Below, piece by piece: positions 1 through 64,000 of a stretch of 64,000 bases of DNA. Below the pieces are notes generated by a model. The model was not told the DNA's origin, ran no database searches, and was given only the letters and a program-made list of their open reading frames with translations. Position numbers and translations under genes: made by a program. Position 1 is the stretch's first letter; each line of letters starts with the position of its first letter. Source of the stretch: a virus; the IMG/VR virus record IMGVR_UViG_3300018080_000131, positions 37,075 through 101,074 of that record; one strand, written 5' to 3'.

Positions 1-936
1 ACTTGTGGAAGAAAAGTAACAGAGAAATCAGTAGAAGATGTTAAGAAAAGATATAAAGAGGATTTGAAACCTTTGCTTTTAAAACAAAAGAAATGGAATG
101 AAGAGGTTGTTAAATTTAATAAAGAAAAAGAAGATAAGAAAGTAAAATGGGATAAGAAAATAGATGAACTTATTAAGGCTGAGGATGAGCTTCTTGATGC
201 TGTAGAAGATTTTGAAAAAGAGAAGAAAGGGTTTGAGGATAAGATAAGAAGATTTGAGGATGATATTAAAGATAATAAAAGAGAGATTAAGGGTTTAGAA
301 GATAAGAAAGATTTAGCAGAAGGATATGCTCAGGAAGCTATTGATAAGAAGAAAGAGGGTTTAAAGAAGGTTGAAAATGGTATTAAGGATATTAAAAAAG
401 CTATGAAGAAGTTAGAGATTGATATTCCTTATTATGAATTTTGGGTTGAAGGGTTTGGTAATAAGGGTATTAAGAGCTTCTTGATTGATGAGGTAGTTCC
501 AGTGTTGAATAACAAAGTTAGTGAGTTTGCATCTGCTCTTATGGATGATAGTGTTCAGGTTCAGTTTGATACTCAAAGTAAATTGAAGAGTGGGGAGTAT
601 AGAGAGAAGTTTGATGTTAAAATGGTAGTTGGTGATGAGGAAATTAATTATAGTAGTTTCTCAGCAGGAGAGAAAAGGAAGATTGATGTTGCAATTCTAT
701 TAGCATTACAGAATCTTATCTTTCAGAGAAGTGCTAGTGGTTGTAATTTGGTTGTTTTTGATGAGGTGTTTGATGCTTTAGATAGAGTTGGAATTGAAAG
801 GGTTGTTAATTTACTTAGTGAAGAATCTAAAGAGAAATCTATTTTTGTGATAAGCCATATTCAAGAGCTTCAGGATTATTTTGATAAAGTGATTATAGTA
901 AAAAATAAAAATGGAATAAGTGAATTGGAGGCATAA
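1..936 (+). CDS. SbcC/Rad50/T4 gp46-like recombination ATPase (5' truncated)
   Basis: Frame open from base 1 (TCG of a zinc hook), coiled coil, ABC signature FSAGEKRK, Walker B VVFDEVFDALD, H-loop ISH. Confidence 0.9.
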   Translation, partial: TCGRKVTEKSVEDVKKRYKEDLKPLLLKQKKWNEEVVKFNKEKEDKKVKWDKKIDELIKAEDELLDAVEDFEKEKKGFEDKIRRFEDDIKDNKREIKGLEDKKDLAEGYAQEAIDKKKEGLKKVENGIKDIKKAMKKLEIDIPYYEFWVEGFGNKGIKSFLIDEVVPVLNNKVSEFASALMDDSVQVQFDTQSKLKSGEYREKFDVKMVVGDEEINYSSFSAGEKRKIDVAILLALQNLIFQRSASGCNLVVFDEVFDALDRVGIERVVNLLSEESKEKSIFVISHIQELQDYFDKVIIVKNKNGISELEA

Positions 937-1116
937 ATGCTTAATTTATTAATTGGTTTGAAACATCCAGATAAGGTTTTTAATGTTGATAATTATCAGG
1001 AGTTTCAACATAAGAAGTTTGGAAATCAGTTATGGATTCAAATGAAATTAGCTGATGGTGGAAAAGCAGAAGTTCCAGCAGAGAATGTTGCTTTTATAAT
1101 AGAGGCTAAGAAATAA
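937..1116 (+). CDS. hypothetical protein (59 aa)
   Basis: ATG right after upstream TAA; its stop overlaps the next ATG. Confidence 0.55.
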   Translation: MLNLLIGLKHPDKVFNVDNYQEFQHKKFGNQLWIQMKLADGGKAEVPAENVAFIIEAKK

Positions 1117-2281: not shown

Positions 2282-2310
2282 TTGACAAACAAGAAAAAAT
2301 GTTTTATATT
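2282..2310 (+). promoter_or_regulatory. sigma70-type early promoter, repeat copy 1
   Basis: TTGACA-17-TATATT with upstream A-tracts. Confidence 0.85.
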
Positions 2311-2343
2311 ATAAGTACAATGACAAATAAAAAGGAGCAAACA

Positions 2344-10040: not shown

Positions 10041-10286
10041 AATGAAAAGAATAAGTGGTATTGATATTAGTAAATGGGGTATTTGGTTTAATTATCAGTT
10101 TTGGATTGACAAAGAAAAAAGAATAAATGAGGAAGACGGTTTGCTTTATGTGTGGATATGGAAAAGAAAGAAAAAATATAGAAGATTCAAATACTGTTCT
10201 TCTATATCTCAGGGTTTGTTTAAGAGCTTGAAAGAGGTAAGGGAATTTTGGGTTGATTATAATAAATTTGTAAGATGGTATAAAAC

Positions 10287-11201
10287 ATGAAAACAATAGA
10301 TGAGATTTTTGAAGGTGTTTGGGTTAGTGATGGTGAGTTTTTAATTCAGTGTCCTTATTGTAATGACCATCCTACTCATAATCATTGTTATGTGAATATC
10401 AAAAAAAGTGTTTTTAATTGTTTTTATTGTGGAGAATCAGGAACATTAAAAAAGCTGTTAAAGGATTTTGGTGATGATGAGAAGGTTAAGACGATAAGAA
10501 GAAGGCATGGGGTTAAAGAAAGACAAAAACATAAAGAAATATCAATTGATGAGTTTAATAGATTTAATCCAGTAACAGGAGCTAATGGTACTAATGATTT
10601 ATTAGCATTGAAATATCTTGAGAATAGAGGATTAAGACCATTTGAGATTAGGAATTATGATATTAGGTATGCTTCTTCAGGTAAGTATTTTGGAAGGGTG
10701 ATTATTCCTATTTATGAGGAAGGTGATTTGGTTTGTTTTATTGCAAGAAGTTTCTTAGATATGATTGAACCTAAATATTTATTTCCAAAGCATGGAGAAA
10801 CTAAATTAACTACAAATGAAGCATTATTTGGGTATGAGAAATCAAGAGATTATTGGTCAAGCAATCATGTTATTGTAGAAGGTGTTTTTGATGCTATAAA
10901 GATAAATCAAACAGATAATTTTAAAGGTATAGCTATTATGAGCAAGCATTTAAGTGAAGGTCAGAAATATAAGCTGTTGAAGCTGGAAGGAACTTTTTAT
11001 ATAATGCTAGATTCAGATGCTAAGTTAGATTCTTTGAAGGTTGCTGGAGAATTATCTAAGTATGGAAAAATTGTGAAGGTTGCGTTTATTAAAAGTAAAG
11101 ACCCAGGAGAAGCTAGTTTGAAGGAAATAAGAAAGGCTTTGAGACAAGCTGAGCCTTTTTCTTATGAACTAGAAATGAGAATAAAAATGGAGGATTGGTA
11201 A
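10287..11201 (+). CDS. DNA primase (zinc finger + TOPRIM)
   Basis: CPYC..CFYC zinc finger, YLENRG, GRVIIP, PKY, IVEGVFDA, MLDSDA, KDP. Confidence 0.88.
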   Translation: MKTIDEIFEGVWVSDGEFLIQCPYCNDHPTHNHCYVNIKKSVFNCFYCGESGTLKKLLKDFGDDEKVKTIRRRHGVKERQKHKEISIDEFNRFNPVTGANGTNDLLALKYLENRGLRPFEIRNYDIRYASSGKYFGRVIIPIYEEGDLVCFIARSFLDMIEPKYLFPKHGETKLTTNEALFGYEKSRDYWSSNHVIVEGVFDAIKINQTDNFKGIAIMSKHLSEGQKYKLLKLEGTFYIMLDSDAKLDSLKVAGELSKYGKIVKVAFIKSKDPGEASLKEIRKALRQAEPFSYELEMRIKMEDW

Positions 11202-11479
11202 GGCAGGTAAAAATGCTAAAAATAACAGTTGAGATTATTCCTTTTGGAATAAAAGATATGAAGAAAAGGCTTGGCGAGATATATATTACTAATGATGGTA
11301 CTGGAAATGAAGAAATAGGAAATTATAATTATACAATTAAAACTGAAAGAAGACAAGATGAGAAGATTGGTGATGAGTTAAAAGGGAGAGTAGAGAACTT
11401 CCAAAGAAGAAAGTGTAATTTTTGGAAGCTGTTGTATTTGATTTTGAAGGGAGTTTATGATGGGAGAGAAAAAATATAA
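11195..11479 (+). CDS. conserved phage hypothetical protein
   Basis: I.NDGTG...GNY pattern. Confidence 0.55.
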   Translation: MVRQVKMLKITVEIIPFGIKDMKKRLGEIYITNDGTGNEEIGNYNYTIKTERRQDEKIGDELKGRVENFQRRKCNFWKLLYLILKGVYDGREKI

Positions 11480-12284
11480 AATTTATTTGATTATAAATAA
11501 AATTAATGGAAAAACATATGTTGGAATGACTAGTAGGACAGTTAAACAGAGAGTAGAGGGTGGTCATTTTACTAAAAATGCTAATATTCTGTTACAAAGA
11601 GCTTTAGATAAATATGGAAAAGATAATTTTGAATATGGTACTTTAGAAGTTTGTGGTTGTGAAGAGGATGCTGTTGAAGCTGAAAAATTTTGGATTGCTA
11701 CTTTTAATAGTATTTCTAATGGATATAATATAGATGAAGGTGGTACTTTTCCAAGTGAATCTATGAGGGATAAAAGTAGTGAAGGACTTAGAGAATATTG
11801 GAAAAGAGTTACAGGTAAGAAATCAGTAAAAAGAATAAATATTAAGAAAATAAATGAATTAACACAGAAATATGTTGATACAAAGGATGAAAAAATTTGG
11901 GATGATTTAATTTCAGAATTGTATATTATTATTGATATTTTACTTGGGAAAAATTATACAAGAATAAAAACTCTTTGGGATGATATGAGACAAGATGTAA
12001 TAATTAACTTGTGGAAAAATAGAAGAACTGTTGGTGATACCTGTTCTCATAGTTTTTATAATCATTATTATAATAGAATTAGAAAGGGGTTAAATAGAGC
12101 TATAAAAAAATATGAAGGTGAAAAATATGAAGAAAGTGATTATTTAATTTATAAGGAGAAAAAACAACCTATGTATGATTTTTTAGATATGAATGTTAAG
12201 TCTATAGAAGATTTAACTGATGAGGAAAAATTAGAAGTTGGTTTGGATACTGAAGGAAATATGTCAGAAGATTATGAAGAGTAA
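11457..12284 (+). CDS. GIY-YIG endonuclease domain fused to a sigma-factor region-2-like domain
   Basis: KIYLIINKINGKTYVG, catalytic R, E, GYN; C-terminal half DDMRQDVIINLWK...FYNHYYNRIR resembles sigma region 2. Confidence 0.65.
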   Translation: MMGEKKYKIYLIINKINGKTYVGMTSRTVKQRVEGGHFTKNANILLQRALDKYGKDNFEYGTLEVCGCEEDAVEAEKFWIATFNSISNGYNIDEGGTFPSESMRDKSSEGLREYWKRVTGKKSVKRINIKKINELTQKYVDTKDEKIWDDLISELYIIIDILLGKNYTRIKTLWDDMRQDVIINLWKNRRTVGDTCSHSFYNHYYNRIRKGLNRAIKKYEGEKYEESDYLIYKEKKQPMYDFLDMNVKSIEDLTDEEKLEVGLDTEGNMSEDYEE

Positions 12285-21859: not shown

Positions 21860-22298
21860 TATTGTTATTTAAAAACAAGATGAAACAAAAATTAGGTAAA
21901 GATGATTATGGATTTGTGATTAATGGAGAAACTGGAAATTTGGAAATGTCTCTTCCTAAGAAGGAAGAGTATACAATAAAAGAATTAAGCATTGTTTTAG
22001 CTGGTCTTGAAAAATTTAAAAAAGCTTTCAAGATATTAGTGGAAAATGGAGAGTAAATAATGACAAAAAGAATATCAAGTAATATAACAAAATCAAGTAA
22101 AAAGAAACAGTGGACTTGTAAAAAATGTGGTAAAAAAGGTATTGTAGGTGAGTATACACAATCCTTAATCTGTGGTGATTGTGGAAATGTGATTAGTGAA
22201 TTTAAACAGGTTGAGATTATTACAGAACCTTGGATTGGGAAACAAGAAGAGATTATGGAAAGTGATAAATAAAATTACATTTTTTGAAGGAGATTGAA

Positions 22299-30559: not shown

Positions 30560-32149
30560 ATGGAAAAAGAGAAGAATAAGGGCTTTGTGTCTAAAGTTAG
30601 GAGTGGTCTAGCTAGGTTTGTATTTGGAGATGAGTTTATTGCAAAACAAACTACAGAATATATTCCTGACAAGGGGAGAACTCCAAACTTTTTTAAAAGC
30701 TTTTATAATCAATATATTGATGCAATAGAAAAGGCTAGAAAAAGGCATGATAAATATGACAGGTATAAATTTCTTGATGACAATTTAGCTGAAGCTTCAG
30801 CTTCATTAAATATTTATGCTGATAATATTGTTAGTGGAGCTATGGGTGGAAGAGAAAATTATATGGTTTTGCTTGATGAGGCTACTCCTAATAAAAGTGA
30901 GATTGAGGAAGTTATAAAATATAATGAACAGATGAGTAATATTAAAAATTCAATTTGGGATATTGCTAGGAAGATGTTGAATTATGGGGATGATTGGAGA
31001 GAAGTTGTTATTGCTCAAAATGATAAAGGATTGAAATATATTGATAAATTAAAACCTTTACCAGTAAAAGAAATGTATGCTGAAGTGGATGATAGGGGTG
31101 TTTGGAAAGACCCATTATATCCATATACTCAAAAAAAGGATGAAAGAGATGATGGTGTTAAATTTGATTGGTGGAGAATACTTCATTTCAAAGTTGGAGA
31201 AGAGGTTTATGGTGATGATTATTCTTTGTTTGCTAATGCTTCTCAGAGAATAGGAAGACAATTGTTGTGGATAGATGATTGTATGGTTATTGCTAGGATG
31301 AGTAGAGCTTGGATGAGGTATGCTTATTTGGTTGATACAGAAGGTTTGAATCCTGAAGAAAGATGGGAATATGCTCAGAGATTTTTAGAGATGATGAAAA
31401 GAACTGAAGAGGCTGAAGAAAGTACTGGAAGGTTGAATCAATATGATGCTCCAAGGATGCCTGATGAGGATATTGTTATTCCTGTTACAAAGGATTCAAG
31501 ACAGGATATTAAACCTTTGAGTGGTGATTTGAATATAGGTAATATTGATGATGTTAGATACTTCCAAGGTAAGTTCCTTATGGCTTTGAATATTCCTAAA
31601 GCTTATATGGCTATTGAAGAAGGTGTAAGGTCAAAGGCTACATTACAACAAATAGATGTTCAGTTTGCAAGACAGGTAAGAAGGAAGCAAGATGCTCTTA
31701 TTCCTGGTCTTAAAAAACTTTATAAGTTGATATTTACTTTGGCTGGTATTGATTATACTTCATTTAATTGGGATATTGTTTTCCCAGAATTGGCTACTAT
31801 TGATGAATTAACAAGATGGGAAATGATGAAAATAAAAGCTGAGGTTGCTAAAATTTTAGCTGTTGATGTTGGAGCTATTAATAATGAATATATTTATTAT
31901 GAGATTTTGGAGATGACAGAAGAAGAGGTTAATAAATACAGGTTGGTTACTCCTGGTAGAGAGCCTTCTGATTTAGTTAATATTCCACCAGAAGTAGCAG
32001 GTAAGTTGAAGAATGACCCATATGTTAGGCAAATGATTGATGATTTAACTGATATTATTTCTTGGAGAAAAGCACAAACTGACAAGCTTGAAGGAATGAA
32101 GGCTGTTGGTGTTGAAAGAAATAAGAGTTTGAAAGAGATGAGAGATTAG
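30560..32149 (+). CDS. portal protein (T4 gp20-like)
   Basis: L.IYAD, ILHF, RMSRA..R..Y.VD, I..L.G..NIGNIDDV.YF..K...AL.IPKAY, DVQFARQVRR.Q. Confidence 0.85.
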   Translation: MEKEKNKGFVSKVRSGLARFVFGDEFIAKQTTEYIPDKGRTPNFFKSFYNQYIDAIEKARKRHDKYDRYKFLDDNLAEASASLNIYADNIVSGAMGGRENYMVLLDEATPNKSEIEEVIKYNEQMSNIKNSIWDIARKMLNYGDDWREVVIAQNDKGLKYIDKLKPLPVKEMYAEVDDRGVWKDPLYPYTQKKDERDDGVKFDWWRILHFKVGEEVYGDDYSLFANASQRIGRQLLWIDDCMVIARMSRAWMRYAYLVDTEGLNPEERWEYAQRFLEMMKRTEEAEESTGRLNQYDAPRMPDEDIVIPVTKDSRQDIKPLSGDLNIGNIDDVRYFQGKFLMALNIPKAYMAIEEGVRSKATLQQIDVQFARQVRRKQDALIPGLKKLYKLIFTLAGIDYTSFNWDIVFPELATIDELTRWEMMKIKAEVAKILAVDVGAINNEYIYYEILEMTEEEVNKYRLVTPGREPSDLVNIPPEVAGKLKNDPYVRQMIDDLTDIISWRKAQTDKLEGMKAVGVERNKSLKEMRD

Positions 32150-32154
32150 TTTTT

Positions 32155-32227
32155 GCCAGGATAGTATAATGGAGATTATTCCTGTTTTGTAAGCAGAGAG
32201 ATGAGGGTTCAAGTCCTTCTCCTGGCT
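32155..32227 (+). tRNA. tRNA-Thr(UGU), CCA not encoded
   Basis: GCCAGGA/TCCTGGC acceptor, anticodon loop TT-TGT-AA, T-arm GAGGG-TTCAAGT-CCTTC. Confidence 0.85.
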
Positions 32228-42360: not shown

Positions 42361-43578
42361 GTGTTAAGTAAAAAAGTAAATAAGTTTTTGCAAGAGCAGA
42401 AAAAGAGAATGATTGCTCTTGATGAAGCAGAACTTCCTGTTGATGATGGTTTTAGAGCTAATGTGATGAGAGATGAGAATGGAAGAAGGGCTAGTGTTAA
42501 TGAAGTTATTTATCAGAATATGATTGATTGGCTTAATTCTCCTCAGGCTGAAGCAATCCTTTGGAAAGAGAGAGAAGTGCTTGAAAGTGCTATTTCTGAA
42601 GATACTCTTTCTACTAGTGTCCCTACTTTCACTACTGCTTCTCTTCCTTTGGTGAGAAGGATTTATAACAAGCTTGATGCTGTTGATTTGGTTTCTGTGC
42701 AACCTTTGAGTGGTCCTACTGGTTATATCTTTTATCTTGATAAGAAATATACTAGTACTACTGGTGAGGTAACTGCATTACAGAGAACTGACCAGCAAAA
42801 GCCTAGAAGGTATATGAATTCTAGTGAGCAGGGTACTATTAGAGAATTGCAGATGGGTATTACCAGATTGCTGATTGAGTCTGATATTTATAAATTGAAG
42901 GCTGATTGGACAATTGAGGCTGAACAGGACTATAAATCTCAGTATAAACTTGATGTTGAAGGCGAGATGGTTTCTGAGCTTGCTGATGAGGTTACCAGAG
43001 AGCTTAATAGGAAAATCCTATATGCTCTTAGAAATGGTATTGCTCATACTGTAACTTATAATCCTACTGGGTATCTTACAGGAGATACAGATTCAACTTC
43101 TAGGTTGGATTATAGAAAGTATGGATTGTTTGGTGCTTTGTATGATGCTCAGGCTTGGATTCTTGAGAATAAGGTCAAAGATGAAACTGCTGTTGATTGG
43201 TGGGTTATAATGAGACCTACTGAGTGGGCTAGATTTAGAAAAATTGGTATGCATGATATGTCAGTTCTTTCTAATGATAGAACTGCTGAAGTTCAGGGTA
43301 GGCATGTTGGCACTATTGATGGAATGTTCAAGGTCTATGTGTCTAATGAGATGAAGAAGAATCAGATGTTGATGGGAATCAAGAAGGGTTGGAAATATGC
43401 TGTTGGTTATTATGCTCCTTATGTTCCTCTTTTTGTGTCTGAGAAATACATCATAAATGATGATTTTACTCAGTTTGCAAGAGGAGTTATGACAAGGTTT
43501 GCCCATGGGGTAATTCCTGAAACTTCTACTGGTTCTACCAACAATGGTCTTGTTCTTATTGATGTAACTTCAAGCTAA
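42361..43578 (+). CDS. major capsid protein (T4 gp23-like)
   Basis: PLVRR, SVQPLSGPTG.IFYL, KLKA.WT.E.EQD, YAPYVPL, RGVMTRF. Confidence 0.92.
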   Translation: MLSKKVNKFLQEQKKRMIALDEAELPVDDGFRANVMRDENGRRASVNEVIYQNMIDWLNSPQAEAILWKEREVLESAISEDTLSTSVPTFTTASLPLVRRIYNKLDAVDLVSVQPLSGPTGYIFYLDKKYTSTTGEVTALQRTDQQKPRRYMNSSEQGTIRELQMGITRLLIESDIYKLKADWTIEAEQDYKSQYKLDVEGEMVSELADEVTRELNRKILYALRNGIAHTVTYNPTGYLTGDTDSTSRLDYRKYGLFGALYDAQAWILENKVKDETAVDWWVIMRPTEWARFRKIGMHDMSVLSNDRTAEVQGRHVGTIDGMFKVYVSNEMKKNQMLMGIKKGWKYAVGYYAPYVPLFVSEKYIINDDFTQFARGVMTRFAHGVIPETSTGSTNNGLVLIDVTSS

Positions 43579-43704: not shown

Positions 43705-44748
43705 ATGAAACTTTTTAATATTGCTGTCAATAAATCAAAATGTAGTCAGGGATTCTCTGATAATTTTGGTGAATCTGTTTCAGTATATCCTAATTGGGGT
43801 GTTGATGTTTCCTTTACAAGAGGGAAACCAATTGCTATAAAAGAGATAGGAAGTTTTGTAAATTTTCTTAGGAAAAGGGATATTAAGGAATTTTCAATAA
43901 AGAGAAGTTTTGCTCTTGGTGATGTTTTAATGTTATGTCCAGTTTATCATTATTTAAAGGATATTGGATTTGAACCAAGGTTATTTATAAAAGATAAGTA
44001 TGCTGGTCTTATGAGATTGCTTGGGACAAATGCTTATTCTATTGATGATATGGATAGTATTATTGATAATCCTGGTTATGGAATTATTCTTGATGGTACT
44101 TTAGAGCTTGACCATGTAAGAAAGAATTTGCAAAAATTTAGCAGAGTTCAATTATATTTTTCTGCTTTGGGAATTTATGATTTCCCAGAAGAAGTCAGGT
44201 GGGATTGTGATTTGAGTAAGTTTCCAGAAATTGAGACTAAATTTGATGATTATGTGGTATTTCAAAGTAAGGGTTCAACAGGTGCAAAAACTCTTCCAAA
44301 TGATACTTCAATTCATATTGTCAAAAGATTAAATGAAGAAGGAATAAATGTAGTTTATATAGGGGACAAAAGAGGTGGAATGGGCAAACAGGTTGATATG
44401 GAGAAGACAGATTTAGCTCATTTCAGGTATAGTGCTAAAGGGTTGTTTTCTCTTATTGGGAAAGCTAAGTGTGTGATAAGTATGGATTCTGCTCCATTAT
44501 GGATTAGTCATTTCACAAAGACTCCATTAATGACTATACTTGGTCCAACAAGTTCAAAGGTAAGATTAAACCACCATCCATTAAATCCTGATGGTGTTGA
44601 GTATTTGCAGTTGAATGAAAGGATAGATTGTGATTGTTGTTTTGAAAAGGCTAAAGCTTGTAATTGGAATTATACTTGTTTAAAGTTAGATAAAGAAAGG
44701 TTATTTAAAATGATTTATGAAAAGATAAAGAGGTTTTGGAATGATTAA
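43705..44748 (+). CDS. GT9 (heptosyltransferase-like) glycosyltransferase
   Basis: ALGDVLM, ISMDSAP.WIS, ILGPT, C-terminal Cys cluster. Confidence 0.85.
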   Translation: MKLFNIAVNKSKCSQGFSDNFGESVSVYPNWGVDVSFTRGKPIAIKEIGSFVNFLRKRDIKEFSIKRSFALGDVLMLCPVYHYLKDIGFEPRLFIKDKYAGLMRLLGTNAYSIDDMDSIIDNPGYGIILDGTLELDHVRKNLQKFSRVQLYFSALGIYDFPEEVRWDCDLSKFPEIETKFDDYVVFQSKGSTGAKTLPNDTSIHIVKRLNEEGINVVYIGDKRGGMGKQVDMEKTDLAHFRYSAKGLFSLIGKAKCVISMDSAPLWISHFTKTPLMTILGPTSSKVRLNHHPLNPDGVEYLQLNERIDCDCCFEKAKACNWNYTCLKLDKERLFKMIYEKIKRFWND

Positions 44749-47584
44749 ATTATTAGAACATATGCTTAAAGTTGATGGTAAGCAAATTGACCCAAAAATG
44801 AAATGCACTATTAGTTTTTATGATAGAAAGGAAGAACCAAGAATTTTTAAACCAGGAGAGTATGTAACATTGAAAGATATTAAAAACTTTAGAATACCAG
44901 ATAAATATCTTGTTAATCCTGAGTGTATGAGGCTTAAAGGAGCTTTTAAATTTGCTCATAAACATAAAGGAACTTTTACAGTTGGAATCTTGAGGAATCA
45001 TAGAGGTGCTGGAGATGTTATTATTGCTTCAGTTATTGCAAAGGCTTTAAAATTTGTTTATAAAGATAAAGCACAGGTTTGGTTTTGTGTAAAATCAGAA
45101 CATGCTTGTTTGTTAGAAAATAATCCTCATATTGATAAGGTGTTTACTGATGAAAAGGAAATGATGAAAGAGAATCCAGATATTAGGGTTGATACTAATG
45201 TTATTGATTTTAGAGTTAAATTAAAAGAGTTTGAAGAGGCTGGAAAGCCATTAAAAAATAGAACTGATATTTATCTTGAGGAACTTGAGTTATATGTTGA
45301 GAATAAAACTCCTGTTTATGTAGTTACAGATGATGAGAAAAAATGGGCTAAGAATGAATTAAATAAACTTGGGTACAATTCAAAAAAAAGAATTGTTGGT
45401 TTGCAATTAGAAGGTTCTGTTAAAAGTAGAACTTATCCTTATATGAAAGAAGTTGGTGAGTTGCTTAAAAAAGAAGGTTACCAGATATTTTATCTTGATG
45501 AGAAAAGTGATGGTAAATTTAAATATGGGTTTAGAGAGATTGCTTCTCTTATGAATGAAATGTATATGATAATCACTCCTAATTCATTTATGTATCATTT
45601 AGCAGGAGCTTTAGGTAAAAGGGGTTTGGTGTTGTTTGGTTCTTGTGATGGTAATATTTGGGTTGAAGATTATGAAAAGATTCTTCCAGTAGAGATACCT
45701 TGTCCTTTTGGACAGAAAAAATGTTGGTGGAGTTTTAGGTGTCTTGAAGGTGATAGTTTGAAAGAGAAGGAGAATAAAGGTGTTCCTAAATGTTTAAGTG
45801 ATATTACTCCTGAGCAGGTTGTTGAAAACATGGAAAAACATAAAAATGTCAAGAAGGTTCTTGTGCTTGCTCTTACTTATGATTTTTTAAATCTTACTAA
45901 AGATATGGTTGATTCTGTAAGAAGTTTTCATGATTATGATATTTTTATTGTGGATAATGAGAGTAAAGATGGAACTGTTGAATGGTTAAAAAATAGAGGA
46001 ATTGATTTTGTCTCAAAAAAGACCAGTGTTGCTCAGGCTGAAAATATTGGTTTGGAAAAAGCATATGAGGGAGGCTATGATTATTGTTTAGTTTGTAATA
46101 ATGATATTATATTATCTGCTGATTATATTGATGTTTTAGTTGAAATTGCAGAAAGAAGAAAATCTTATATGACCACAGGGAAGGTTATTACTAAAGATTC
46201 TAAAGAAATGCTTGATTTTGAAAAGCTAAAAGATAAGAATATAGAACTTCCTATTCAAGTCATGGAAGCTGGTGATTATTCTGCTATTCTAATGTCAAGA
46301 GAATGTATTGAAAAGGTTGGAAAGTTTGATGAAAGGTTTGGTCCAAGGTATCAGGAAGATGAGGACCATATGTTAAGAGTTAGGCTTTCTGGTCATGATA
46401 TTATTAGAACTTACAGTACAAGTTTCCTTCATATGCTAGGGCAGGTTTGTAAAAAGAATAGAAAAGAATCTATTTATCATGAAGATAATTGGGCTAGGAA
46501 TGTTAGAAAATTTAAGAAAAAATGGGGTATTGATTTATATGCTGAAAGAAATAAGTTAAAGCATTTGAATGAGATTAAAAACAATGTTCCTAATTGGAAT
46601 GATATGATTCATATTCCTATTACAGATAAAAAGGTTAAGTTTGATATTCATAATATTACTACTCCAATTAATATAATAAAAGAGGCTATTAAGAATAATA
46701 AAAAATCTAGGGTTGCTGTTGTTAGGAGAATGGGGGGAGCAGGAGATATATTATTTATATCCATTATAGCTAAAACATTGAAGAATATTTTTGGTGCTAA
46801 GATTGAAATTGATTATGCTATTCCAAAAAATTTATTCTCTTTATTGAAATATAATAAGCATATTGATAAAGTTGTTGATTATCATGATTTTCATGGTGGT
46901 GATTATGATTTTGTATTTCATACAACAGATTATGAATATGAACAGGAAATGTTACAGGTTGAAGAAACAGGATGGATTCAGAAGGCTAGAACTGAAATGT
47001 TTGTTGAGTTAGTTGGTATTGATGCTGATTTAAAACCTGATTTTGATTTAACAAATGATGAGATAAAGTGGGGTAAGAAACAATGGGAATTTGCTGGTGA
47101 TAAAAAGAAAATTGCTGTTTCTATTAAAGGAAGTAATAAAATGAAAGAGTGGATAAGGTTTGATGCTTTTATAGAAATGCTTGAGAGGAAAGGTTATGCT
47201 GTTATTGTCCTTGAAAGAATGGAAGGAGAGAAATATAAATATAGCCTTAGAGAAGCAGGAGCTATTATAAATGCTAGTGATGCTGTTGTATCACCAGATA
47301 GTGCTTTTTCTAATATAGCTGGTTGTTTGGGTATTCCAGTTGTAACTATTTTTCCTAATAGGAATGGTAAGATTTTTGAAAGAATGTTTCCTAGTATGAT
47401 TGCTGTTCAAGGAGAGTGTCCACATTTTGATGATAGGAATTATTGTGATTATAAAGTTCCATGTTTTGAAGGTTCTATACAGGATTATAGAAAAAAAGAA
47501 CAGATTAAACCACCAAAATGTTTAAATGGTTTATCTCTTGGTAAGGTTTTTGAAGCATTAAGGAGAGCTTTAAATGAGGCTTGA
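44741..47584 (+). CDS. GT9-GT2-GT9 tri-domain glycosyltransferase
   Basis: Two GAGD..I/PDS-type GT9 units flanking VDNESKDGT, NNDI, FDERF..EDED GT2 motifs. Confidence 0.85.
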   Translation: MIKLLEHMLKVDGKQIDPKMKCTISFYDRKEEPRIFKPGEYVTLKDIKNFRIPDKYLVNPECMRLKGAFKFAHKHKGTFTVGILRNHRGAGDVIIASVIAKALKFVYKDKAQVWFCVKSEHACLLENNPHIDKVFTDEKEMMKENPDIRVDTNVIDFRVKLKEFEEAGKPLKNRTDIYLEELELYVENKTPVYVVTDDEKKWAKNELNKLGYNSKKRIVGLQLEGSVKSRTYPYMKEVGELLKKEGYQIFYLDEKSDGKFKYGFREIASLMNEMYMIITPNSFMYHLAGALGKRGLVLFGSCDGNIWVEDYEKILPVEIPCPFGQKKCWWSFRCLEGDSLKEKENKGVPKCLSDITPEQVVENMEKHKNVKKVLVLALTYDFLNLTKDMVDSVRSFHDYDIFIVDNESKDGTVEWLKNRGIDFVSKKTSVAQAENIGLEKAYEGGYDYCLVCNNDIILSADYIDVLVEIAERRKSYMTTGKVITKDSKEMLDFEKLKDKNIELPIQVMEAGDYSAILMSRECIEKVGKFDERFGPRYQEDEDHMLRVRLSGHDIIRTYSTSFLHMLGQVCKKNRKESIYHEDNWARNVRKFKKKWGIDLYAERNKLKHLNEIKNNVPNWNDMIHIPITDKKVKFDIHNITTPINIIKEAIKNNKKSRVAVVRRMGGAGDILFISIIAKTLKNIFGAKIEIDYAIPKNLFSLLKYNKHIDKVVDYHDFHGGDYDFVFHTTDYEYEQEMLQVEETGWIQKARTEMFVELVGIDADLKPDFDLTNDEIKWGKKQWEFAGDKKKIAVSIKGSNKMKEWIRFDAFIEMLERKGYAVIVLERMEGEKYKYSLREAGAIINASDAVVSPDSAFSNIAGCLGIPVVTIFPNRNGKIFERMFPSMIAVQGECPHFDDRNYCDYKVPCFEGSIQDYRKKEQIKPPKCLNGLSLGKVFEALRRALNEA

Positions 47585-52958: not shown

Positions 52959-53653
52959 TTATGTCATTAAAATATAAGTTTTTGTTTAAGCATGTTCCTA
53001 GAGTTGCTGGTAAATCAATTATGAGTACTCTTACTCCTTATAGTGATATTGTTAAAGCTGGTCATGCAGATATGAAAGCTATTAGAAATAGTTTATTGCA
53101 TAGGAATAAATGGAGATTTTTGGTTGATTGTGAAACACCAGATATGGAGCAGGTTGAGATTTATGGAAGACAATTATGTATCAAAGAGAAATTTTTTAAG
53201 ATGAGTCAAGAAGAATATGATGAGTTATTTACTTTTGCTTTTGTCAGGAATCCTTATGGTAGAGAGTTGTCAAGGTATTTGTTTATAGGTAAAAGACCTC
53301 AGCATGTAAGATATAAAGAGGTTAATAATAGAACTTTTGAACAGTGGTTGAAATATTTATATGATAATCCAAATAGAAGACAGAATCAGTTAGATATGTT
53401 AACTGACAAAGAAGGTAAAATGATAATTACATTTGTTGGGAAGTATGAGAATTTGGAAGGTGATTTTAAAACAGTTTGTTCTAAAGTTGGTCTTCCAGCA
53501 GATTTAAAATTATTCCATATTGATTTAGTTGGTATGGAGCATTTAATAAGAAAAGATTATGGTCAATACAAAGACTATTTTACAGATGAAGCTAAGAAAT
53601 TAGTTAGAGAAATTTGTAAAAAAGATATTGAGTATTTTGGCTATGAATTTTAA
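52955..53653 (+). CDS. sulfotransferase (Sulfotransfer_2 family)
   Basis: F.HVPRVAG.S; FVRNPY.R..S.Y; D..YFGY.F. Confidence 0.85.
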   Translation: MIMSLKYKFLFKHVPRVAGKSIMSTLTPYSDIVKAGHADMKAIRNSLLHRNKWRFLVDCETPDMEQVEIYGRQLCIKEKFFKMSQEEYDELFTFAFVRNPYGRELSRYLFIGKRPQHVRYKEVNNRTFEQWLKYLYDNPNRRQNQLDMLTDKEGKMIITFVGKYENLEGDFKTVCSKVGLPADLKLFHIDLVGMEHLIRKDYGQYKDYFTDEAKKLVREICKKDIEYFGYEF

Positions 53654-54596
53654 GGAGAAAGATTTGAAAAAAACAATTTTGGTAACTGGTGGAGCAGGAT
53701 TTGTAGGTTCTGTTCTTATTCCATTATTAATTGAGCAAGGTTATAAGGTAAGGGCATATGATTCTTTATTGTATGGTATTGAACCTGTAATGGGGTTGTT
53801 TTTGAATAAGAACTTTGAGTTGATTAAAGGTGATATTAGAGATGTTGATAGAGTTAAGAAATATTCAGAAGGTGTTGATGCTGTTATTCATTTAGCTTCT
53901 CTTGTTGGGTATCCTATTTGTAAGAAGAATGAGAAAGAAGCTATGTCAGTAAATTCTTATGGTACACAGGCTGTTCTTAATAGTATTCCTTCTAAAGTTC
54001 CTTTTATTTTTGCTTCTACAGGTTCATGTTATGGGAACTTGGAAGGTATTTGTAAGGAAGATTTGCCATTAAAACCTTTAACAATTTATGGTAAATCAAA
54101 AGCTAAAGCTGAGGAGTTTATTCAGAAAAGAGGAAATTATGTGATTTATAGATTTGCTACAGGTTATGGTGTTTCTCCAAGGTTAAGATTAGATTTGATG
54201 ATAAATGATTTTTGTTATAAAGCTGTTAAAGAAAAGAATTTAATTGTATATGAGAAGCATTTTAAGAGAACTTTTATTCATGTATATGATATGGCTAGGT
54301 CTTTTTTATTTGCTGTTGAGAATTTTGATAAGATGAAGAATGAGTGTTTTAATGTTGGTTCTGAAAAGTTGAATTTAACAAAGGAGCAGATAGCTGAATA
54401 TATTAGAAGGTTTGTCCCATATTATTTGCATTATGCTGATTTTGGTCATGATGAGGATAAAAGAGATTATTCTGTAAGTTATGAGAAGATTAGAAAGCTT
54501 GGTTTTGAAACTAAGATTTCTATGGAAGTTGGTATTATTCAATTAATAAGGTTGTTTAAGGCTTTGGAGATTGAAAACAAATATTCAAATGTCTAA
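53643..54596 (+). CDS. NAD-dependent nucleotide-sugar epimerase/dehydratase
   Basis: TGGAGFVG, YGKSK, extended SDR. Confidence 0.9.
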   Translation: MNFKEKDLKKTILVTGGAGFVGSVLIPLLIEQGYKVRAYDSLLYGIEPVMGLFLNKNFELIKGDIRDVDRVKKYSEGVDAVIHLASLVGYPICKKNEKEAMSVNSYGTQAVLNSIPSKVPFIFASTGSCYGNLEGICKEDLPLKPLTIYGKSKAKAEEFIQKRGNYVIYRFATGYGVSPRLRLDLMINDFCYKAVKEKNLIVYEKHFKRTFIHVYDMARSFLFAVENFDKMKNECFNVGSEKLNLTKEQIAEYIRRFVPYYLHYADFGHDEDKRDYSVSYEKIRKLGFETKISMEVGIIQLIRLFKALEIENKYSNV

Positions 54597-54750: not shown

Positions 54751-54957
54751 ATGATTGATTCAAGATGTAGGTCTTTTGTTAAAGCATTAGTTTGGAGAAT
54801 TATAGGTATTATAATTCTTGGAATTGTAACTTATGTAGTTACTGGAAGCTGGAAAGATGTTGGTATTATCACCATAATATTTCATGGAATAAGAGTTGTT
54901 TTGTATTATTACCATGAAAGAATATGGGAAAAAATTAAATGGGGTAGGAGTTTATAA
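54751..54957 (+). CDS. DUF2061 membrane protein
   Basis: RS.VKA..WR...YYHERIW.KI.WG. Confidence 0.85.
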   Translation: MIDSRCRSFVKALVWRIIGIIILGIVTYVVTGSWKDVGIITIIFHGIRVVLYYYHERIWEKIKWGRSL

Positions 54958-55904
54958 TGAATTTAGAAGGTAAAAAGGTCTTGTTAACTGGAGGCTCAGG
55001 TTTTCTTGGTAGGGTTATTAAAAGAAAACTCTTACTGAAAGATGTGGAGCTTTTTGCTCCAAGGTCTTCAGAAATGAATATGTTGGATTTTAGACAAGTG
55101 TTAGAATATTTTACTGAGGTTGACCCAGAAATTGTAATTCATAGTGGTGCTTATTATGGTGGTCTTGGTATAAATAGGATGTATCCTGCTGAGATATTCT
55201 TTCAGAATACTTTATTTTATGCTCATATTTTAGAGGCTTCAAAGTTGGTTGATGCTAAAAAGGTTGTGATGGTTGGAACTGCATGTTCTTATCCTGATGG
55301 TCTTGAGATTTTGAAAGAAGAGGATTTATGGAGTGGTGCTGTTCACAAGTCAGTACAGAACTATGGTGGTGTAAAAAAGATGATGCAGATTGGGATTGAA
55401 TCTTATAAAAATCAGTATGGAATGGATGGTATCCATGTACTTCTTGCTAATTTGTATGGTGAATGGGATAGTTACAATCCTGAAAGGAGTCATGTTGTTA
55501 GTGCTTTAATTAGGAAATTTGTTGAAGCTAAGATGTTTGATAGACCAGAAGTTGGGGTTTGGGGTACAGGAAGACCTATAAGAGAATTTTTGTATGTGGA
55601 AGATGCAGGAGAGGGTATTGTTAGGGCTACAGAAATGTATGATGATATTTCTCCTTTGAATATAGGAACTGGAATTGGTACAAGTATTAAAGAGCTTGTT
55701 AATTTAATTGCTTATGTTACTGAATATAATGGAAAGATTGTTTGGGAATCTGATAAGCCTGATGGACAGTACAAGAAAATTTTTAGTACTGAGAAAATGG
55801 AAAGGGTTTTGAATTGGAAACCAGAAATGCCTTTAATTGGTGGTCTTAAAAGAACCTGTAAATGGTTTGAAGACAACTATGAAGAGGCTATAAAAAGATT
55901 TTAA
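54957..55904 (+). CDS. fcl: GDP-L-fucose synthase-like epimerase/reductase
   Basis: TGGSGFLG, GG.G.N..YPA..F, GTACSYP, SHVV.ALIRKF, WGTG.P.REFLYV.D, KPDG. Confidence 0.88.
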   Translation: MNLEGKKVLLTGGSGFLGRVIKRKLLLKDVELFAPRSSEMNMLDFRQVLEYFTEVDPEIVIHSGAYYGGLGINRMYPAEIFFQNTLFYAHILEASKLVDAKKVVMVGTACSYPDGLEILKEEDLWSGAVHKSVQNYGGVKKMMQIGIESYKNQYGMDGIHVLLANLYGEWDSYNPERSHVVSALIRKFVEAKMFDRPEVGVWGTGRPIREFLYVEDAGEGIVRATEMYDDISPLNIGTGIGTSIKELVNLIAYVTEYNGKIVWESDKPDGQYKKIFSTEKMERVLNWKPEMPLIGGLKRTCKWFEDNYEEAIKRF

Positions 55905-60793: not shown

Positions 60794-63700
60794 ATGTCTT
60801 CTAAAGATGTAGTTGTTGTACTTGAATTTACAGATAAAGGTACAGCAAAAATTAAGAAAGTACTTCAGGATACTGAAGGTAGGCTTAAAGCTGTTGGTTC
60901 TTCTGCTGAGAAGTCTGGTAAAGGCTTTAAGAGTATGACAAATGAAACTAACAAAGCTACAGAAAAAACTTCTAAGTTCAAGTCAATGCTAAAAAGTACT
61001 GCTGTTCAGATGGCAACAGGTATGGGAATCATGATGGGAGTTTCAGGAGCAATAAGAGGTATATCTAATGCTGTAAAAAGTACTATCCAGGCTGGTATGG
61101 AGTTTGAAAAAGAATGGGCTAATGTAACAACAATGCTTTCTATATCAGAAGCAGAGACAGAAAAAATGAAAATGGGTTTAATTAAAATGTCTCCAGTATT
61201 GGGGGATACAACAGATTTAGCTAAAGGTATGTACCAGGTTCTTTCAGCTAGTATTGAACCTGCTAAGGCTTTAGATTTCTTAGCTGAATCAGCTAAGAGT
61301 GCTAAGGCTGGTGTTACTGATACAAAAACTGCTGTTGATGCTCTTACTACTGTTATAAATGCTTATGGGATGGAAGCTGAAGATGTTACAAAAGTAAGTG
61401 ATATTATGTTTGCTACAGTTAAAAGAGGTAAATTGACCTATGAAGGTATGGCTGGAGCTTTGGGAACTGTTGCTCCTATAGCTAGTCAAGTTGGTGTTAA
61501 GTTTGAAGAGATAGCTGGAGCTATGGCTACATTAACAAGGCAAGGTATTGATGTAAATACAACAACAGTTCAGTTGAGGCAGGTTCTTGTTTCTGTTTTG
61601 AAACCAACAAAAGAAGCTCAGGATGAGGCTAAAAGATTAGGTTTAGAATTCAATGCACAGGCTTTAAAGGCTAAGGGATTGTCAGGTTTTCTTGCAGATG
61701 TTCAAGCAAAAACAAAAGGAAATGCTGATTCAACTACAAAATTGTTTGGTAATGTTAGGGCTTTAACAGGTATTATGGGATTAGCAGGAGAAAGAGCTAA
61801 GGAGTATGCTTATGATTTGGAATTAATGGCTAGTGCTTCTGGAGCTACAGAAGAAGCTTTTCAAAAACAAATGAAAAGTTCTGCTTTTTGGATAGATGTA
61901 ATGAAGAATACTATAAAGAAATTACAAATTTCTTTTATGCAAGGAATGGTAGAACCTTTTAAGAAAGGTGTAAGAACAAGTGATGATTTAGATAATTCTA
62001 TAGGTATGTTAATTGATAAGGTTTTAAATTTAGGAAGGAATGTTGGTAAAACAGCTAAAAAAATTGTTGATAATATTAATATAGTTATTTCTACTCTTGG
62101 TGGTATGGATAATGCTATTAATACTGTTTCTAAAAGTTGGGCAGAAAAAATGGGTAAAAAATTGTTTGGAGATAAATCAGCAAAAGAGGCTATGTCAGAG
62201 GCTAGACAAGAAGCAAGAAAATGGTCAGAGCAGTTAGAATATGTAACTATTGCATATGAAGAATTAGCTAAAAATTATGCTAATCCAAAATGGAGAAGGG
62301 AGATGGAGGCTAGAAATGAGCTAATGAAAGAAGGTGCTAGACAAACTGAGCTTGCTAAATTTGAGAATAAAGGTCTTCTTGGTACTATGGCTCATTTATC
62401 TACAGAATATAGAAATACTATTAGTAACATTTATGCTACTTCAAAATCTCATGAGGAAGCTAGAAATAGGATAGAGGCTTATAATAATAGAATTAAACAA
62501 TCAACTGAGGCTCATGAAGATAATAATGAAAAAATAAAAACAAGTGTTGAGGTTATTAAAACTCTTACTGATAAAGCTGTTGAATTAAAAAATAATATTC
62601 CTGGTTGGCACTCTGCTTTATTGAATGAATTGAATATGGTTACTACCAGTGTTCAAAATATGAGTGAAAGAAATATTAAGAATGTTGGTGATACATTGAA
62701 ACAGTGGGTTACAGTTGATGCTGGGAATATTTTGAGTAACTTACCAGCAACTTATGAAGATAGAGCATTAATACCTATGGAAGATAAGACAAAAAAAGTT
62801 ACAGAAGAAATGGCAAAGAGTTTTGAAGAGATTGGTATGGCACTCCAACCTATTGCTGAAGAAATAGGTGGAACTTGGGGTGATTTAATTGCTAATGTTG
62901 GTGTAGCCTTTGGTTCATTGAAGAAAGATACTGTAATGACCTTTAAAGGTATAGCTGATGCAATTGGACCAGTTTTGAGTGGAAAGATAGGTGGAGCTAT
63001 AGGTAGTCTTATTAGTGGTACAAAGAAGAACTTTGCTAGTTTAGGAAGTAGTTTAGGAAAAAGTATTGGTGGGTTGTTAGGACCAGTTGGAAGTGTTGTG
63101 GGTAGTTTAGCAGGTGGTCTACTTGGTGGTTTGTTTAAAAAGAAAGTGAAGAAAACAGCAGAGGAATTAAGAGCAGAAAAGTTGGATGTTTGGATTGGTA
63201 ACATTACAGGAGCTATGAAAAACTTAGGTGATATTTCAGAAGAGACAGCTAAAATAATAGCTGAAGATGTGGTTGATAGAGGTATGAAAGGTTATATAGC
63301 AGAAAGCAAGAATTTTGCAAAGATAATTGAAGATGTGGGAGTGAGGCAGGATAACATAAATCAGCTATGGTCTAGAGCTACAGATATTATTCATCATGTT
63401 ACAAGTGGTGAGCTTGATGCAGTTGAAGGTAGTAAGGCACTAGGAGAATCTTTTAACCTGTTATTGAAAGGTACTCAGGATTTGGGCTTAGAAGGTTCTA
63501 GAGCTATGACAAACTTCATACAGAAGATAAGAGAAAGTGGTTTGGAAGTTAAAGAAGTAACAGAGTATGTGAATCAACAGTTAGATGTGGTAGTAAGTGG
63601 TTTTCAGAGTATGGTAGGTGCTAGTGATGGAAGTGCTGAGAGTTTACAAAGACTTGGTACAATAGCTATGGGTACTTTTGCAGAGATGATTAATAATGGA

Positions 63701-64000
63701 GATTCATATTATGAAGCATTGATGAGAATGAGAGAACCAGTGCTTGCTTTGGCTGAAAAGTATGATGAATTGGGAATAAAAGGTAGTGAGGCTTTTGAGG
63801 AATTAAAAAGACTTACTCAAATAACAGAAGACCATAAAGAACTAGTTCAAGCTATTGATGGTGCTAATACTGCTTTAACAGCTATGAATAATATTGGTAT
63901 GTTAACTCAGGAATTGTTTGATGCTATGAATCAAGAAGCTGTTACTTATTTTAACCAGCTTGTTAATTCAGGTGTAGCTAGTGAAGATGCATTAAAACTG
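60794..64000 (+). CDS. tail tape measure protein, TP901-like (3' truncated)
   Basis: GAGGT RBS, ATG 60794, appears open to window end; FEKEWANV, LAKGMYQVLSAS, VINAYG, LFGNVRAL motifs; not in ORF track. Confidence 0.9.
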   Translation, partial: MSSKDVVVVLEFTDKGTAKIKKVLQDTEGRLKAVGSSAEKSGKGFKSMTNETNKATEKTSKFKSMLKSTAVQMATGMGIMMGVSGAIRGISNAVKSTIQAGMEFEKEWANVTTMLSISEAETEKMKMGLIKMSPVLGDTTDLAKGMYQVLSASIEPAKALDFLAESAKSAKAGVTDTKTAVDALTTVINAYGMEAEDVTKVSDIMFATVKRGKLTYEGMAGALGTVAPIASQVGVKFEEIAGAMATLTRQGIDVNTTTVQLRQVLVSVLKPTKEAQDEAKRLGLEFNAQALKAKGLSGFLADVQAKTKGNADSTTKLFGNVRALTGIMGLAGERAKEYAYDLELMASASGATEEAFQKQMKSSAFWIDVMKNTIKKLQISFMQGMVEPFKKGVRTSDDLDNSIGMLIDKVLNLGRNVGKTAKKIVDNINIVISTLGGMDNAINTVSKSWAEKMGKKLFGDKSAKEAMSEARQEARKWSEQLEYVTIAYEELAKNYANPKWRREMEARNELMKEGARQTELAKFENKGLLGTMAHLSTEYRNTISNIYATSKSHEEARNRIEAYNNRIKQSTEAHEDNNEKIKTSVEVIKTLTDKAVELKNNIPGWHSALLNELNMVTTSVQNMSERNIKNVGDTLKQWVTVDAGNILSNLPATYEDRALIPMEDKTKKVTEEMAKSFEEIGMALQPIAEEIGGTWGDLIANVGVAFGSLKKDTVMTFKGIADAIGPVLSGKIGGAIGSLISGTKKNFASLGSSLGKSIGGLLGPVGSVVGSLAGGLLGGLFKKKVKKTAEELRAEKLDVWIGNITGAMKNLGDISEETAKIIAEDVVDRGMKGYIAESKNFAKIIEDVGVRQDNINQLWSRATDIIHHVTSGELDAVEGSKALGESFNLLLKGTQDLGLEGSRAMTNFIQKIRESGLEVKEVTEYVNQQLDVVVSGFQSMVGASDGSAESLQRLGTIAMGTFAEMINNGDSYYEALMRMREPVLALAEKYDELGIKGSEAFEELKRLTQITEDHKELVQAIDGANTALTAMNNIGMLTQELFDAMNQEAVTYFNQLVNSGVASEDALKL

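What the first reader, a model, noticed from the sequence alone, without database searches (positions are those of the whole stretch)
1..64000. Apparent GCNGC avoidance removes Ala-Ala from the proteome
Seen: I found no Ala-Ala in any translated ORF and no GCAGC/GCTGC. Ala-Ala must be coded GCN-GCN, which always contains GCNGC (Fnu4HI/TseI-type site), so it cannot be avoided synonymously. Motifs that usually carry AA are substituted: epimerase HLASLVG (usually HLAA), fucose synthase HSGA, GT9 HLAGAL and NIAGCL (usually HLAAAL), portal EASASL, tape measure AGAMAT. Inference: restriction-site avoidance strong enough to force amino-acid changes in conserved motifs.
Basis: partly seen in the sequence, partly recalled or inferred. 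Interest (0 to 1): 0.85.

Follow-up and report, generated by a model that had tools for sequence, protein, structure and literature searches.

The report
CpG plus GCWGC purge bans Ala-Ala
An uncultured 101-kb sediment phage has deleted several short restriction-enzyme-type DNA words, and almost every CpG, so completely that the amino-acid pairs Ala-Ala and Trp-Pro cannot be encoded and are missing from all its proteins; this is an extreme form of a known anti-restriction strategy.

Summary
The window is bases 37075-101074 of a 101,074-bp virus record. That record has no GCNGC, GATC, GGCC or GTSAC, and only 7 CpG where about 2,000 are expected.

Ala-Ala occurs 0 times against 59 expected. Trp-Pro occurs 0 times against 13 expected. 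These are the only two of 400 dipeptides that are absent, and they are the only two that the forbidden words make uncodable.

GCWGC is also missing where it costs no amino acid, with about 11 expected and 0 seen. Other C/G palindromes (AGCT, TGCA, CATG, CTAG, GTAC) are at normal levels. The constraint therefore acts on specific DNA words.

Only GCWGC is independently purged, because GCCGC and GCGGC both contain CpG. Relatives show the logic:
- Phages that purge only GCWGC keep Ala-Ala as GCS-GCN.
- Phages that purge only GCSGC keep it as GCW-GCN.
- A relative that purges both has no Ala-Ala.

A conserved epimerase motif, HLAA in 106 of 119 homologues, reads HLAS here.

This scan has already reported Ala-Ala-free proteomes in at least seven other genomes. 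The host and the enzymes are unknown. The cause of the CpG purge is unexplained.

The parts
1..64000 (.). Window-wide absence of GCNGC, GATC, GGCC and GTSAC, with only 5 CpG. The same holds for the other 37 kb of the record.
53628..54596 (+). Extended-SDR nucleotide-sugar epimerase. The conserved HLAA motif reads HLAS (HLASLVG from residue 88, about nt 53889-53909).
   Evidence: 106 of 119 homologues have AA at this position; the two closest have GA
54957..55904 (+). GDP-L-fucose synthase homologue. HSGA (residue 62) aligns with LAAA of the E. coli enzyme, and EASK aligns with HAAH.
   Evidence: 1bsv, E 1.7e-55
60794..64000 (+). Tape-measure protein (PF10145), open at the 3' end of the window. 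It is 10% Ala with no Ala-Ala. The full 1,280-aa form is P0241, with AA 0 against 10.9 expected.
44741..47584 (+). GT9-GT2-GT9 glycosyltransferase carrying HLAGAL (residue 286) and NIAGCL (residue 858). The motifs are present, but the comparison with homologues was not made.
30560..32149 (+). T4-type portal (Portal_T4) with EASASL at residue 78.
42361..43578 (+). Gp23-type major capsid protein, used to find relatives. It has 25 Ala and no AA. It contains one of the residual CpGs, at 42963.
10137..11275 (+). Cluster of 4 of the 7 residual CpGs (10137, 10492, 11083, 11275), in and around a primase-like ORF. It lies just upstream of a GIY-YIG endonuclease gene (11457-12284).
32155..32227 (+). tRNA-Thr (TGT). 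Its T loop reads GGTTCAAGTCC, so it carries no CpG.

Best explanation
The phage genome has been selected, at the DNA level, to contain no copy of several short words that look like restriction targets. These are GATC, GGCC, GCWGC and GTSAC, probably also ACATGT, and partly GGWCC and CTTAAG. Almost every CpG has been removed as well.

Most of this is achieved with synonymous codons. GAT is never followed by C. Codons ending in C are almost never followed by G. Arg is coded only by AGR.

Two dipeptides have no permitted coding. Ala-Ala is GCN-GCN: with N = A or T it contains GCWGC, and with N = C or G it contains CpG. Trp-Pro is TGG-CCN, which always contains GGCC. Selection against the words has outweighed selection on the proteins, so these pairs were replaced everywhere, mostly by AS, AG, SA, GA or QA, including at conserved motifs.

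Shown here: the word purges, their independence of reading frame, the uncodability argument, the substitutions, and the pattern in relatives.

Inferred: the selecting agents are host restriction endonucleases or similar sequence-reading defences met by unmodified phage DNA.
For: 1. Word counts against a codon-order shuffle of the whole genome: GATC 0/161, GGCC 0/27, GCWGC 0/47, GTSAC 0/22, CG 7/243.
2. With the proteins held fixed and synonymous codons permuted: GATC 0/138, GGCC 0/17, GTSAC 0/29, junction CpG 3/278. GCWGC is 0 against 8.2 in the two frames that do not encode Ala-Ala. A further 2.9 are expected in intergenic DNA, and none is seen.
3. The purge is specific. AGCT, TGCA, CATG, CTAG and GTAC have observed/expected ratios of 0.8-1.1. 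This rules out general cytosine poverty as the cause.
4. Enumeration of codon pairs shows that the set {CG, GATC, GGCC, GCWGC, GTSAC} makes exactly AA and WP uncodable. These are exactly the two absent dipeptides. Adding GGWCC makes GP uncodable, and GP is 14/49. Those 14 account for 14 of the 17 GGWCC that lie in coding sequence.
5. Codon context: GAT followed by C is 0 of 1,788; NNC followed by G is 3 of 1,011; GGC followed by C is 0. DQ is 9/48 and DH is 6/31, because both need the rare codon GAC.
6. Syntenic relatives act as a natural experiment:
- L009 and L010 have GCWGC 0/31-37 with GCSGC present. They keep AA (16 and 21), always coded GCS-GCN.
- L019 and L020 have GCSGC 0 with GCWGC present. 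They keep AA (13 and 13), always coded GCW-GCN.
- L018 has both halves at 0 while 252 CpG remain. Its AA is 0/36.
- L003 and L005 purge neither half and use all codings.
7. Substitution at conserved sites is shown. AS is enriched here (observed/expected 1.34) against 0.92 in relatives.
8. No DNA methyltransferase of PF00145, PF01555 or PF02086 was found in the 101 kb. This fits a phage that relies on avoidance.
Against: - The host is unknown, so no cognate restriction enzyme can be shown.
- No known restriction system reads the bare dinucleotide CG. Yet CpG is purged in all ten NCGN classes, including asymmetric ones (ACGA/TCGT 1 against 61). The largest part of the purge therefore has no identified agent.
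- Seven CpGs persist.
- The record is estimated to be only 65% complete, so a methyltransferase or base-modification gene could lie in the missing part.
- The frame-independent evidence for GCWGC alone is moderate: about 11 expected and 0 seen.
Confidence: 0.8

Rival explanations
1. A single Fnu4HI-type enzyme that reads GCNGC is the agent. The CpG purge would then be a separate matter that only happens to cover GCSGC.
For: A syntenic relative, L018, purges both GCWGC (0/23) and GCSGC (0/16) while keeping 252 CpG. This phage family therefore does meet GCNGC-type pressure. Earlier follow-ups of this scan read GCNGC purges in other genomes.
Against: It cannot be told apart from GCWGC plus CpG in this genome, because every GCSGC contains CpG. 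Other relatives purge GCWGC alone (L009, L010) or GCSGC alone (L019, L020), so half-site specificities are also common. In the survey by Rusinov et al. 2018 (PMC6286503), 66.3% of phage genomes had a GCWGC bias value below 1, against only 22.5% for GCNGC.
Confidence: 0.3
2. The cause is mutational decay and not selection. The words are methylated at cytosine by host methyltransferases, and 5-methylcytosine deaminates to T. This would erode CpG, GATC, GGCC, GCWGC and GTSAC in the way CpG erodes in vertebrate genomes.
For: Every fully purged word contains C. TpG and CpA are mildly over-represented (1.15 and 1.09). C is only 9% of the coding strand.
Against: Depletion is essentially complete: CpG observed/expected is about 0.003, and GATC is 0/161. 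A mutation bias alone would not give that. The purge overrides purifying selection at a conserved enzyme motif. The single tRNA gene also lacks CpG. Other C-containing palindromes are untouched. Relatives with the same strand skew have normal CpG.
Confidence: 0.05
3. Ala-Ala and Trp-Pro are avoided at the protein level, for example because of a host protease. The absence of the DNA words would then be a by-product.
For: Most of the GCWGC expected by chance (66 of about 77 in coding sequence) lies in the Ala-Ala frame.
Against: GCWGC is also absent from the other two frames and from intergenic DNA, with about 11 expected. GGCC is absent in all three frames (17 expected with the proteins fixed). 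GATC and GTSAC force no dipeptide, yet both are 0. Relatives that purge only half of GCNGC keep Ala-Ala through the remaining coding.
Confidence: 0.02
4. The phage encodes nucleases that cut these words in host DNA. Its own word-free genome would then be immune, so self and non-self are told apart by sequence content and not by base modification.
For: The window encodes a GIY-YIG endonuclease, a PDDEXK endonuclease and an SbcC-like protein. No methyltransferase was found.
Against: Nothing links these nucleases to the purged words. GIY-YIG and PDDEXK genes are common in phages as homing or recombination nucleases. Relatives purge different words, as expected from changing host defences.
Confidence: 0.05

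Closest known systems
Restriction-site (short palindrome) avoidance in virulent dsDNA phages. Sharp 1986, Karlin 1992, Gelfand and Koonin 1997 and Rocha 2001 are cited from my own knowledge. The survey by Rusinov et al. 2018 (PMC6286503) was read.
   Same: Short palindromic Type II-like words (GATC, GGCC, GCWGC, GTSAC) are depleted in a phage with no detected methyltransferase. Related phages purge different word sets.
   Different: Here the purge is absolute over 101 kb. It goes beyond synonymous change, leaving two of the 400 dipeptides uncodable and absent, and it rewrites conserved motifs. My literature search found no paper that links restriction avoidance to a dipeptide loss.
Staphylococcus phage K and related Kayvirus phages, which lack GATC (Sau3AI) and GGNCC (Sau96I) sites (from my own knowledge; also named by an earlier follow-up listed).
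   Same: Complete loss of GATC in a large virulent phage genome, with partial loss of GGNCC-type sites.
   Different: This phage adds GGCC, GCWGC, GTSAC and CpG. I know of no reported dipeptide hole for phage K.
CpG under-representation in Mycoplasma penetrans, which has the CpG methyltransferase M.MpeI (Wojciechowski et al. 2013, as cited in PMC11282364), and CpG suppression in vertebrate viruses (ZAP and TLR9 sensing).
   Same: The CG dinucleotide is depleted in every flanking context.
   Different: The depletion here is almost total (observed/expected about 0.003). No CpG methyltransferase gene was found. The genome is a bacterial-type tailed phage with Shine-Dalgarno-like sites and peptidoglycan hydrolases (-series 52, 53, 64), so vertebrate sensors do not apply.
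Earlier cases in this scan of Ala-Ala-free proteomes in uncultured phages, an archaeal virus and a Clostridia plasmid.
   Same: The outcome is the same: GCNGC absent, Ala-Ala absent, often Trp-Pro absent, and motifs substituted.
   Different: In this genome the GCSGC half is closed by a near-total CpG purge. A demonstrable GCNGC-specific purge is not needed to explain it.

Membership tests
Restriction-site avoidance by a phage | The depleted words are short and mostly palindromic, and they match known Type II specificities. | tested here: met
   GATC, GGCC, GCWGC, GTSAC and ACATGT are all 0 against 161, 27, 47, 22 and 17 expected. The enzyme names (MboI/Sau3AI, HaeIII, TseI/ApeKI/BbvI, Tsp45I, PciI) come from my own knowledge.
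Restriction-site avoidance by a phage | Depletion is specific to certain words and is not a side effect of base composition. | tested here: met
   AGCT, TGCA, CATG, CTAG and GTAC have observed/expected ratios of 0.8-1.1 under the same null model. In intergenic DNA, AGCT is 65 against 25 expected while GATC is 0 against 25.
Restriction-site avoidance by a phage | Avoidance acts on the DNA, in all reading frames and in non-coding DNA. | tested here: met
   Expectations by frame with the proteins held fixed; intergenic counts.
Restriction-site avoidance by a phage | The host encodes restriction enzymes with the avoided specificities. | not testable with these tools
   The host is unknown. The record comes from a sediment metagenome. 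No close relative was found among isolated phages.
Restriction-site avoidance by a phage | The phage DNA is not protected by its own methylation or base modification. | tested here: inconclusive
   No PF00145, PF01555 or PF02086 match was found in the 101 kb. However, the record is estimated to be 65% complete, and other modification pathways were not searched.
   Both GCSGC words contain CpG, and CpG is purged everywhere. The expectation for GCSGC under a null that is already free of CpG-containing codons is only 0.9.
CpG loss by methylation and deamination (vertebrate or M.MpeI type) | A CpG methyltransferase is present, depletion is partial, and TpG and CpA show a matching excess. | tested here: not met
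   No C5 methyltransferase was found. Depletion is near-total at 7 of about 2,000 expected. TpG is 1.15 and CpA is 1.09, a mild excess.

The most novel reading that the evidence does not exclude
The bare dinucleotide CpG is itself a defence target in this phage's sediment host community. The agent would be a system that reads two bases, either as unmethylated CpG or as methylated CpG after passage through a CpG-methylating host. No such prokaryotic restriction specificity has been described. On this reading the Ala-Ala hole is a side effect of that unknown system acting together with an ordinary GCWGC enzyme.
Probability: 0.3. Interest if true: 0.85.

Novelty: new variant of a known kind. Interest (0 to 1): 0.55.

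Why it matters
The finding shows that host DNA-cutting defences can act beyond silent sites and remove whole amino-acid pairs from a viral proteome, including at conserved enzyme motifs.

It also gives a simple rule for predicting which pairs are lost. Relatives that close one half of GCNGC or the other confirm this rule.

There are practical consequences:
- Dipeptide holes could serve as a sequence-only readout of the restriction pressures on uncultured phages.
- Such genomes are natural examples of DNA that lacks many restriction sites.
- The near-total loss of CpG, which closes half of the Ala-Ala codings here, has no known agent in prokaryotes and deserves its own study.

Tried and rejected
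The DNA behind P0001, P0122, P0123 and P0247 could therefore not be read.
- Megablast of 20 kb of the window against GenBank phages gave no match. tblastn with the protease and the capsid protein found only distant relatives, below 37% identity.
- The genome-contig scan gave one 1.6-kb fragment. The metagenome scan found no relative closer than 46%. A viral-contig scan with P0122 found nothing.
- The genome search does not draw relatives for a virus record.
- A search of solved structures with the C-terminal GT9 domain found nothing. The GT9 motif claim therefore stays unchecked.
- A proteome-wide rank correlation between the share of allowed codon junctions and dipeptide observed/expected was null (rho 0.03). 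The NNT codons that avoid CpG are the preferred codons anyway. Only junctions that need a rare or impossible coding show depletion.
- The capsid protein alignment has no strongly conserved AA column (the best is 16 of 76), so it says little. The class II ribonucleotide reductase alignment with the Thermotoga enzyme likewise offered no informative AA position.
- The seven residual CpGs share no common flanking word.
Full report
**What the sequence is.** The window is bases 37075-101074 of a single 101,074-bp virus record. The record is classed as linear and estimated to be 65% complete. It is held by one sediment-metagenome run. All long ORFs lie on the plus strand.

It encodes a T4-type portal, an S77 prohead protease, a Gp23-type capsid protein, a class II ribonucleotide reductase, a tape-measure protein and a glycan-building cluster. 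An Amidase_3 and an SLT lysozyme point to a bacterial host. So do Shine-Dalgarno-like cores upstream of 58% of starts, against an 18% background. No isolated phage is close: capsid identity is below 33%. The nearest uncultured relatives share 43-57% capsid identity.

**Check of the observation.** GCNGC is absent from the window and from the whole record. In 153 plus-strand ORFs (30,372 aa), Ala-Ala is 0 against 59.2 expected. Relatives have Ala-Ala at 1.24 times expectation. The tape-measure protein alone has 118 Ala and no AA, against 10.9 expected.

The composition is extreme: C is 9% and G is 22.5% on the coding strand, and C makes up 3.3% of third codon positions. CpG occurs 7 times in 101 kb where base composition predicts about 2,000. 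It remains 7 against 243 when only codon junctions can create it. The purge holds in all ten NCGN classes, including asymmetric ones (ACGA/TCGT 1 against 61), and in intergenic DNA (1 against 213).

Other words are also absent: GATC 0/161, GGCC 0/27, GTSAC 0/22 and ACATGT 0/17. Some are reduced: GGWCC 19/43, CTTAAG 3/20, and CAGTC/GACTG 0 and 2 against 13 and 33. By contrast, AGCT, TGCA, CATG, CTAG and GTAC are at 0.8-1.1 of expectation. The effect is therefore word-specific and is not a consequence of cytosine poverty.

**DNA level or protein level.** I held every protein fixed and permuted synonymous codons. GCWGC is then still expected 8.2 times in the two frames that do not spell Ala-Ala, and 2.9 times in intergenic DNA. 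None is seen. Under the same test GATC is 0/138, GGCC 0/17 and GTSAC 0/29.

Codon context shows how this is done:
- GAT is never followed by C (0 of 1,788). Every Asp before a C-initial codon uses the rare GAC.
- NNC codons are followed by G in 3 of 1,011 cases.
- GGC is never followed by C.

**Why Ala-Ala disappears.** I enumerated all codon pairs against the forbidden set {CG, GATC, GGCC, GCWGC, GTSAC}. Exactly two dipeptides come out uncodable, AA and WP. They are exactly the two dipeptides absent from the proteome (WP 0 against 13.3).

Ala-Ala is GCN-GCN. With N = A or T it contains GCWGC. With N = C or G it contains CpG. So only the GCWGC half is independent evidence of a GCNGC-like target. 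The other half is closed by the CpG purge.

Adding GGWCC makes Gly-Pro uncodable. Gly-Pro is 14/49, and those 14 account for 14 of the 17 GGWCC in coding sequence. Asp-Gln (9/48) and Asp-His (6/31) are depleted because they need GAC.

**A natural experiment in relatives.** The loci below are syntenic with this phage over the head or the neck-tail modules, at 31-67% protein identity. Counts are observed/expected.

| Loci | GCWGC | GCSGC | Ala-Ala | Coding of Ala-Ala |
|---|---|---|---|---|
| L009, L010 | 0/31, 0/37 | 19 and 27 present | 16 and 21, near expectation | always GCS-GCN |
| L019, L020 | 14 and 14 present | 0/14, 0/6 | 13 and 13 | always GCW-GCN |
| L018 | 0/23 | 0/16 (252 CpG remain) | 0/36 | none |
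| L003, L005 | present | present | present | all four codings |

Ala-Ala is lost only when both halves of GCNGC are closed. In L018 a true GCNGC purge does this. In the present phage GCWGC plus CpG does it.

Among 119 tape-measure homologues, three others show the hole: P0247 at 0/19.9, P0255 (encoded by L018) at 0/19.8, and P0256 at 2/17.2. Other relatives purge GATC (L007, L008, L018-L020). Each lineage carries its own set of purged words.

**Substitution at conserved positions.**
- In an alignment of the epimerase with 119 homologues, the HLAA motif is AA in 106 of them. This phage has HLAS. Its two closest homologues (78-79% identity) are the only two with HLGA, a different way of breaking the same pair.
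- Against E. coli GDP-fucose synthase, LAAA aligns with HSGA and HAAH with EASK.
- At 86 Ala-Ala positions in relatives that align to this phage's proteins, it never has AA. Pairs of relatives at similar distance keep AA at about 17% of such positions. Some positions are counted in more than one relative.
- The common replacements are AS, SA, AG, GA and AQ/QA. AS is enriched here (1.34) compared with relatives (0.92).

**Mechanism and rivals.** The best reading is selection against words that host defences cut in unmodified phage DNA. The agents themselves are inferred: the host is unknown, and no methyltransferase was found in the available 65% of the genome.

- A purely mutational origin (methyl-cytosine deamination) fits the mild TpG and CpA excess. 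It does not fit zero counts, the untouched C-containing palindromes, or the overriding of a conserved motif.
- A constraint at the protein level is contradicted by the out-of-frame and intergenic absences and by the half-purging relatives.
- A single Fnu4HI-type enzyme cannot be excluded. It also cannot be shown in a genome without CpG.
- The CpG purge is the part with no known agent. Known CG-containing restriction words would not cover all contexts.

**Relation to what is known.** Restriction-site avoidance in phages is long established (PMC6286503, read). My searches found no paper that ties it to a dipeptide loss. Within this scan, Ala-Ala-free proteomes have already been followed up in at least seven other genomes. 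Two first-stage notes on this same genome flag the CpG loss.

The present case adds two things. It is an instance in which a dinucleotide purge closes half of the codings. It also comes with a set of relatives that demonstrates the both-halves rule.

**Verdict.** This is a new variant of a known kind. Interest is moderate for the Ala-Ala hole itself and higher for the unexplained CpG purge behind it.

Noticed in passing
window 10137-11275 and 11457-12284: Four of the seven residual CpGs of the whole genome cluster within 1.1 kb, in and around a primase-like ORF. This lies immediately upstream of a GIY-YIG endonuclease gene. The stretch may be a recently imported co-conversion tract left by a homing endonuclease.
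   Followed up: partly
window 32155-32227: The single tRNA gene (Thr, anticodon TGT) has a T loop reading GGTTCAAGTCC and contains no CpG. The CpG purge therefore extends to a structural RNA gene.
   Followed up: partly
window 60794-64000 and the start of the record: The tape-measure ORF runs off the 3' end of the record. A 1,280-aa form that is 100% identical (P0241) is on record from a 78,640-bp contig. The record may therefore be a permuted or incomplete copy of a larger genome.
   Followed up: no
whole window: GGAGG is depleted inside ORFs (23 against 93 expected; AGGAGG 1 against 34). Shine-Dalgarno-like cores sit upstream of 58% of starts. This looks like avoidance of internal ribosome-binding sites and is separate from the palindrome purges.
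   Followed up: partly
whole window: Further depleted words have no obvious explanation. CAGTC/GACTG are 0 and 2 against 13 and 33 expected. GATTAC is 0 against 15. GGGTC is 0 against 18, while its complement GACCC is enriched. Some of this may reflect the use of GAC only before C.
   Followed up: no
L019:1-25067 and L020:1-11987: These relatives lack GCSGC (0/14 and 0/6) and GATC (0/84 and 0/40) but keep GCWGC. The pattern is consistent with avoidance of the GCSGC word alone.
   Followed up: partly
L018:1-23033: This relative has a full GCNGC purge and no Ala-Ala (0/36). GATC is 1/81 and CpG is only partly depleted (252/945). It is an independent case of the same dipeptide hole within the phage family.
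   Followed up: partly
window 22284-22922: This ORF gives a strong DUF4417 match (210 bits). The domain has unknown function, and the gene lies in the early or replication region.
   Followed up: no
window 47574-49016: A radical SAM/SPASM domain fused to a methyltransferase lies inside the glycan cluster, next to the GT9-GT2-GT9 protein. Other first-stage notes on this genome have flagged the cluster.
   Followed up: no
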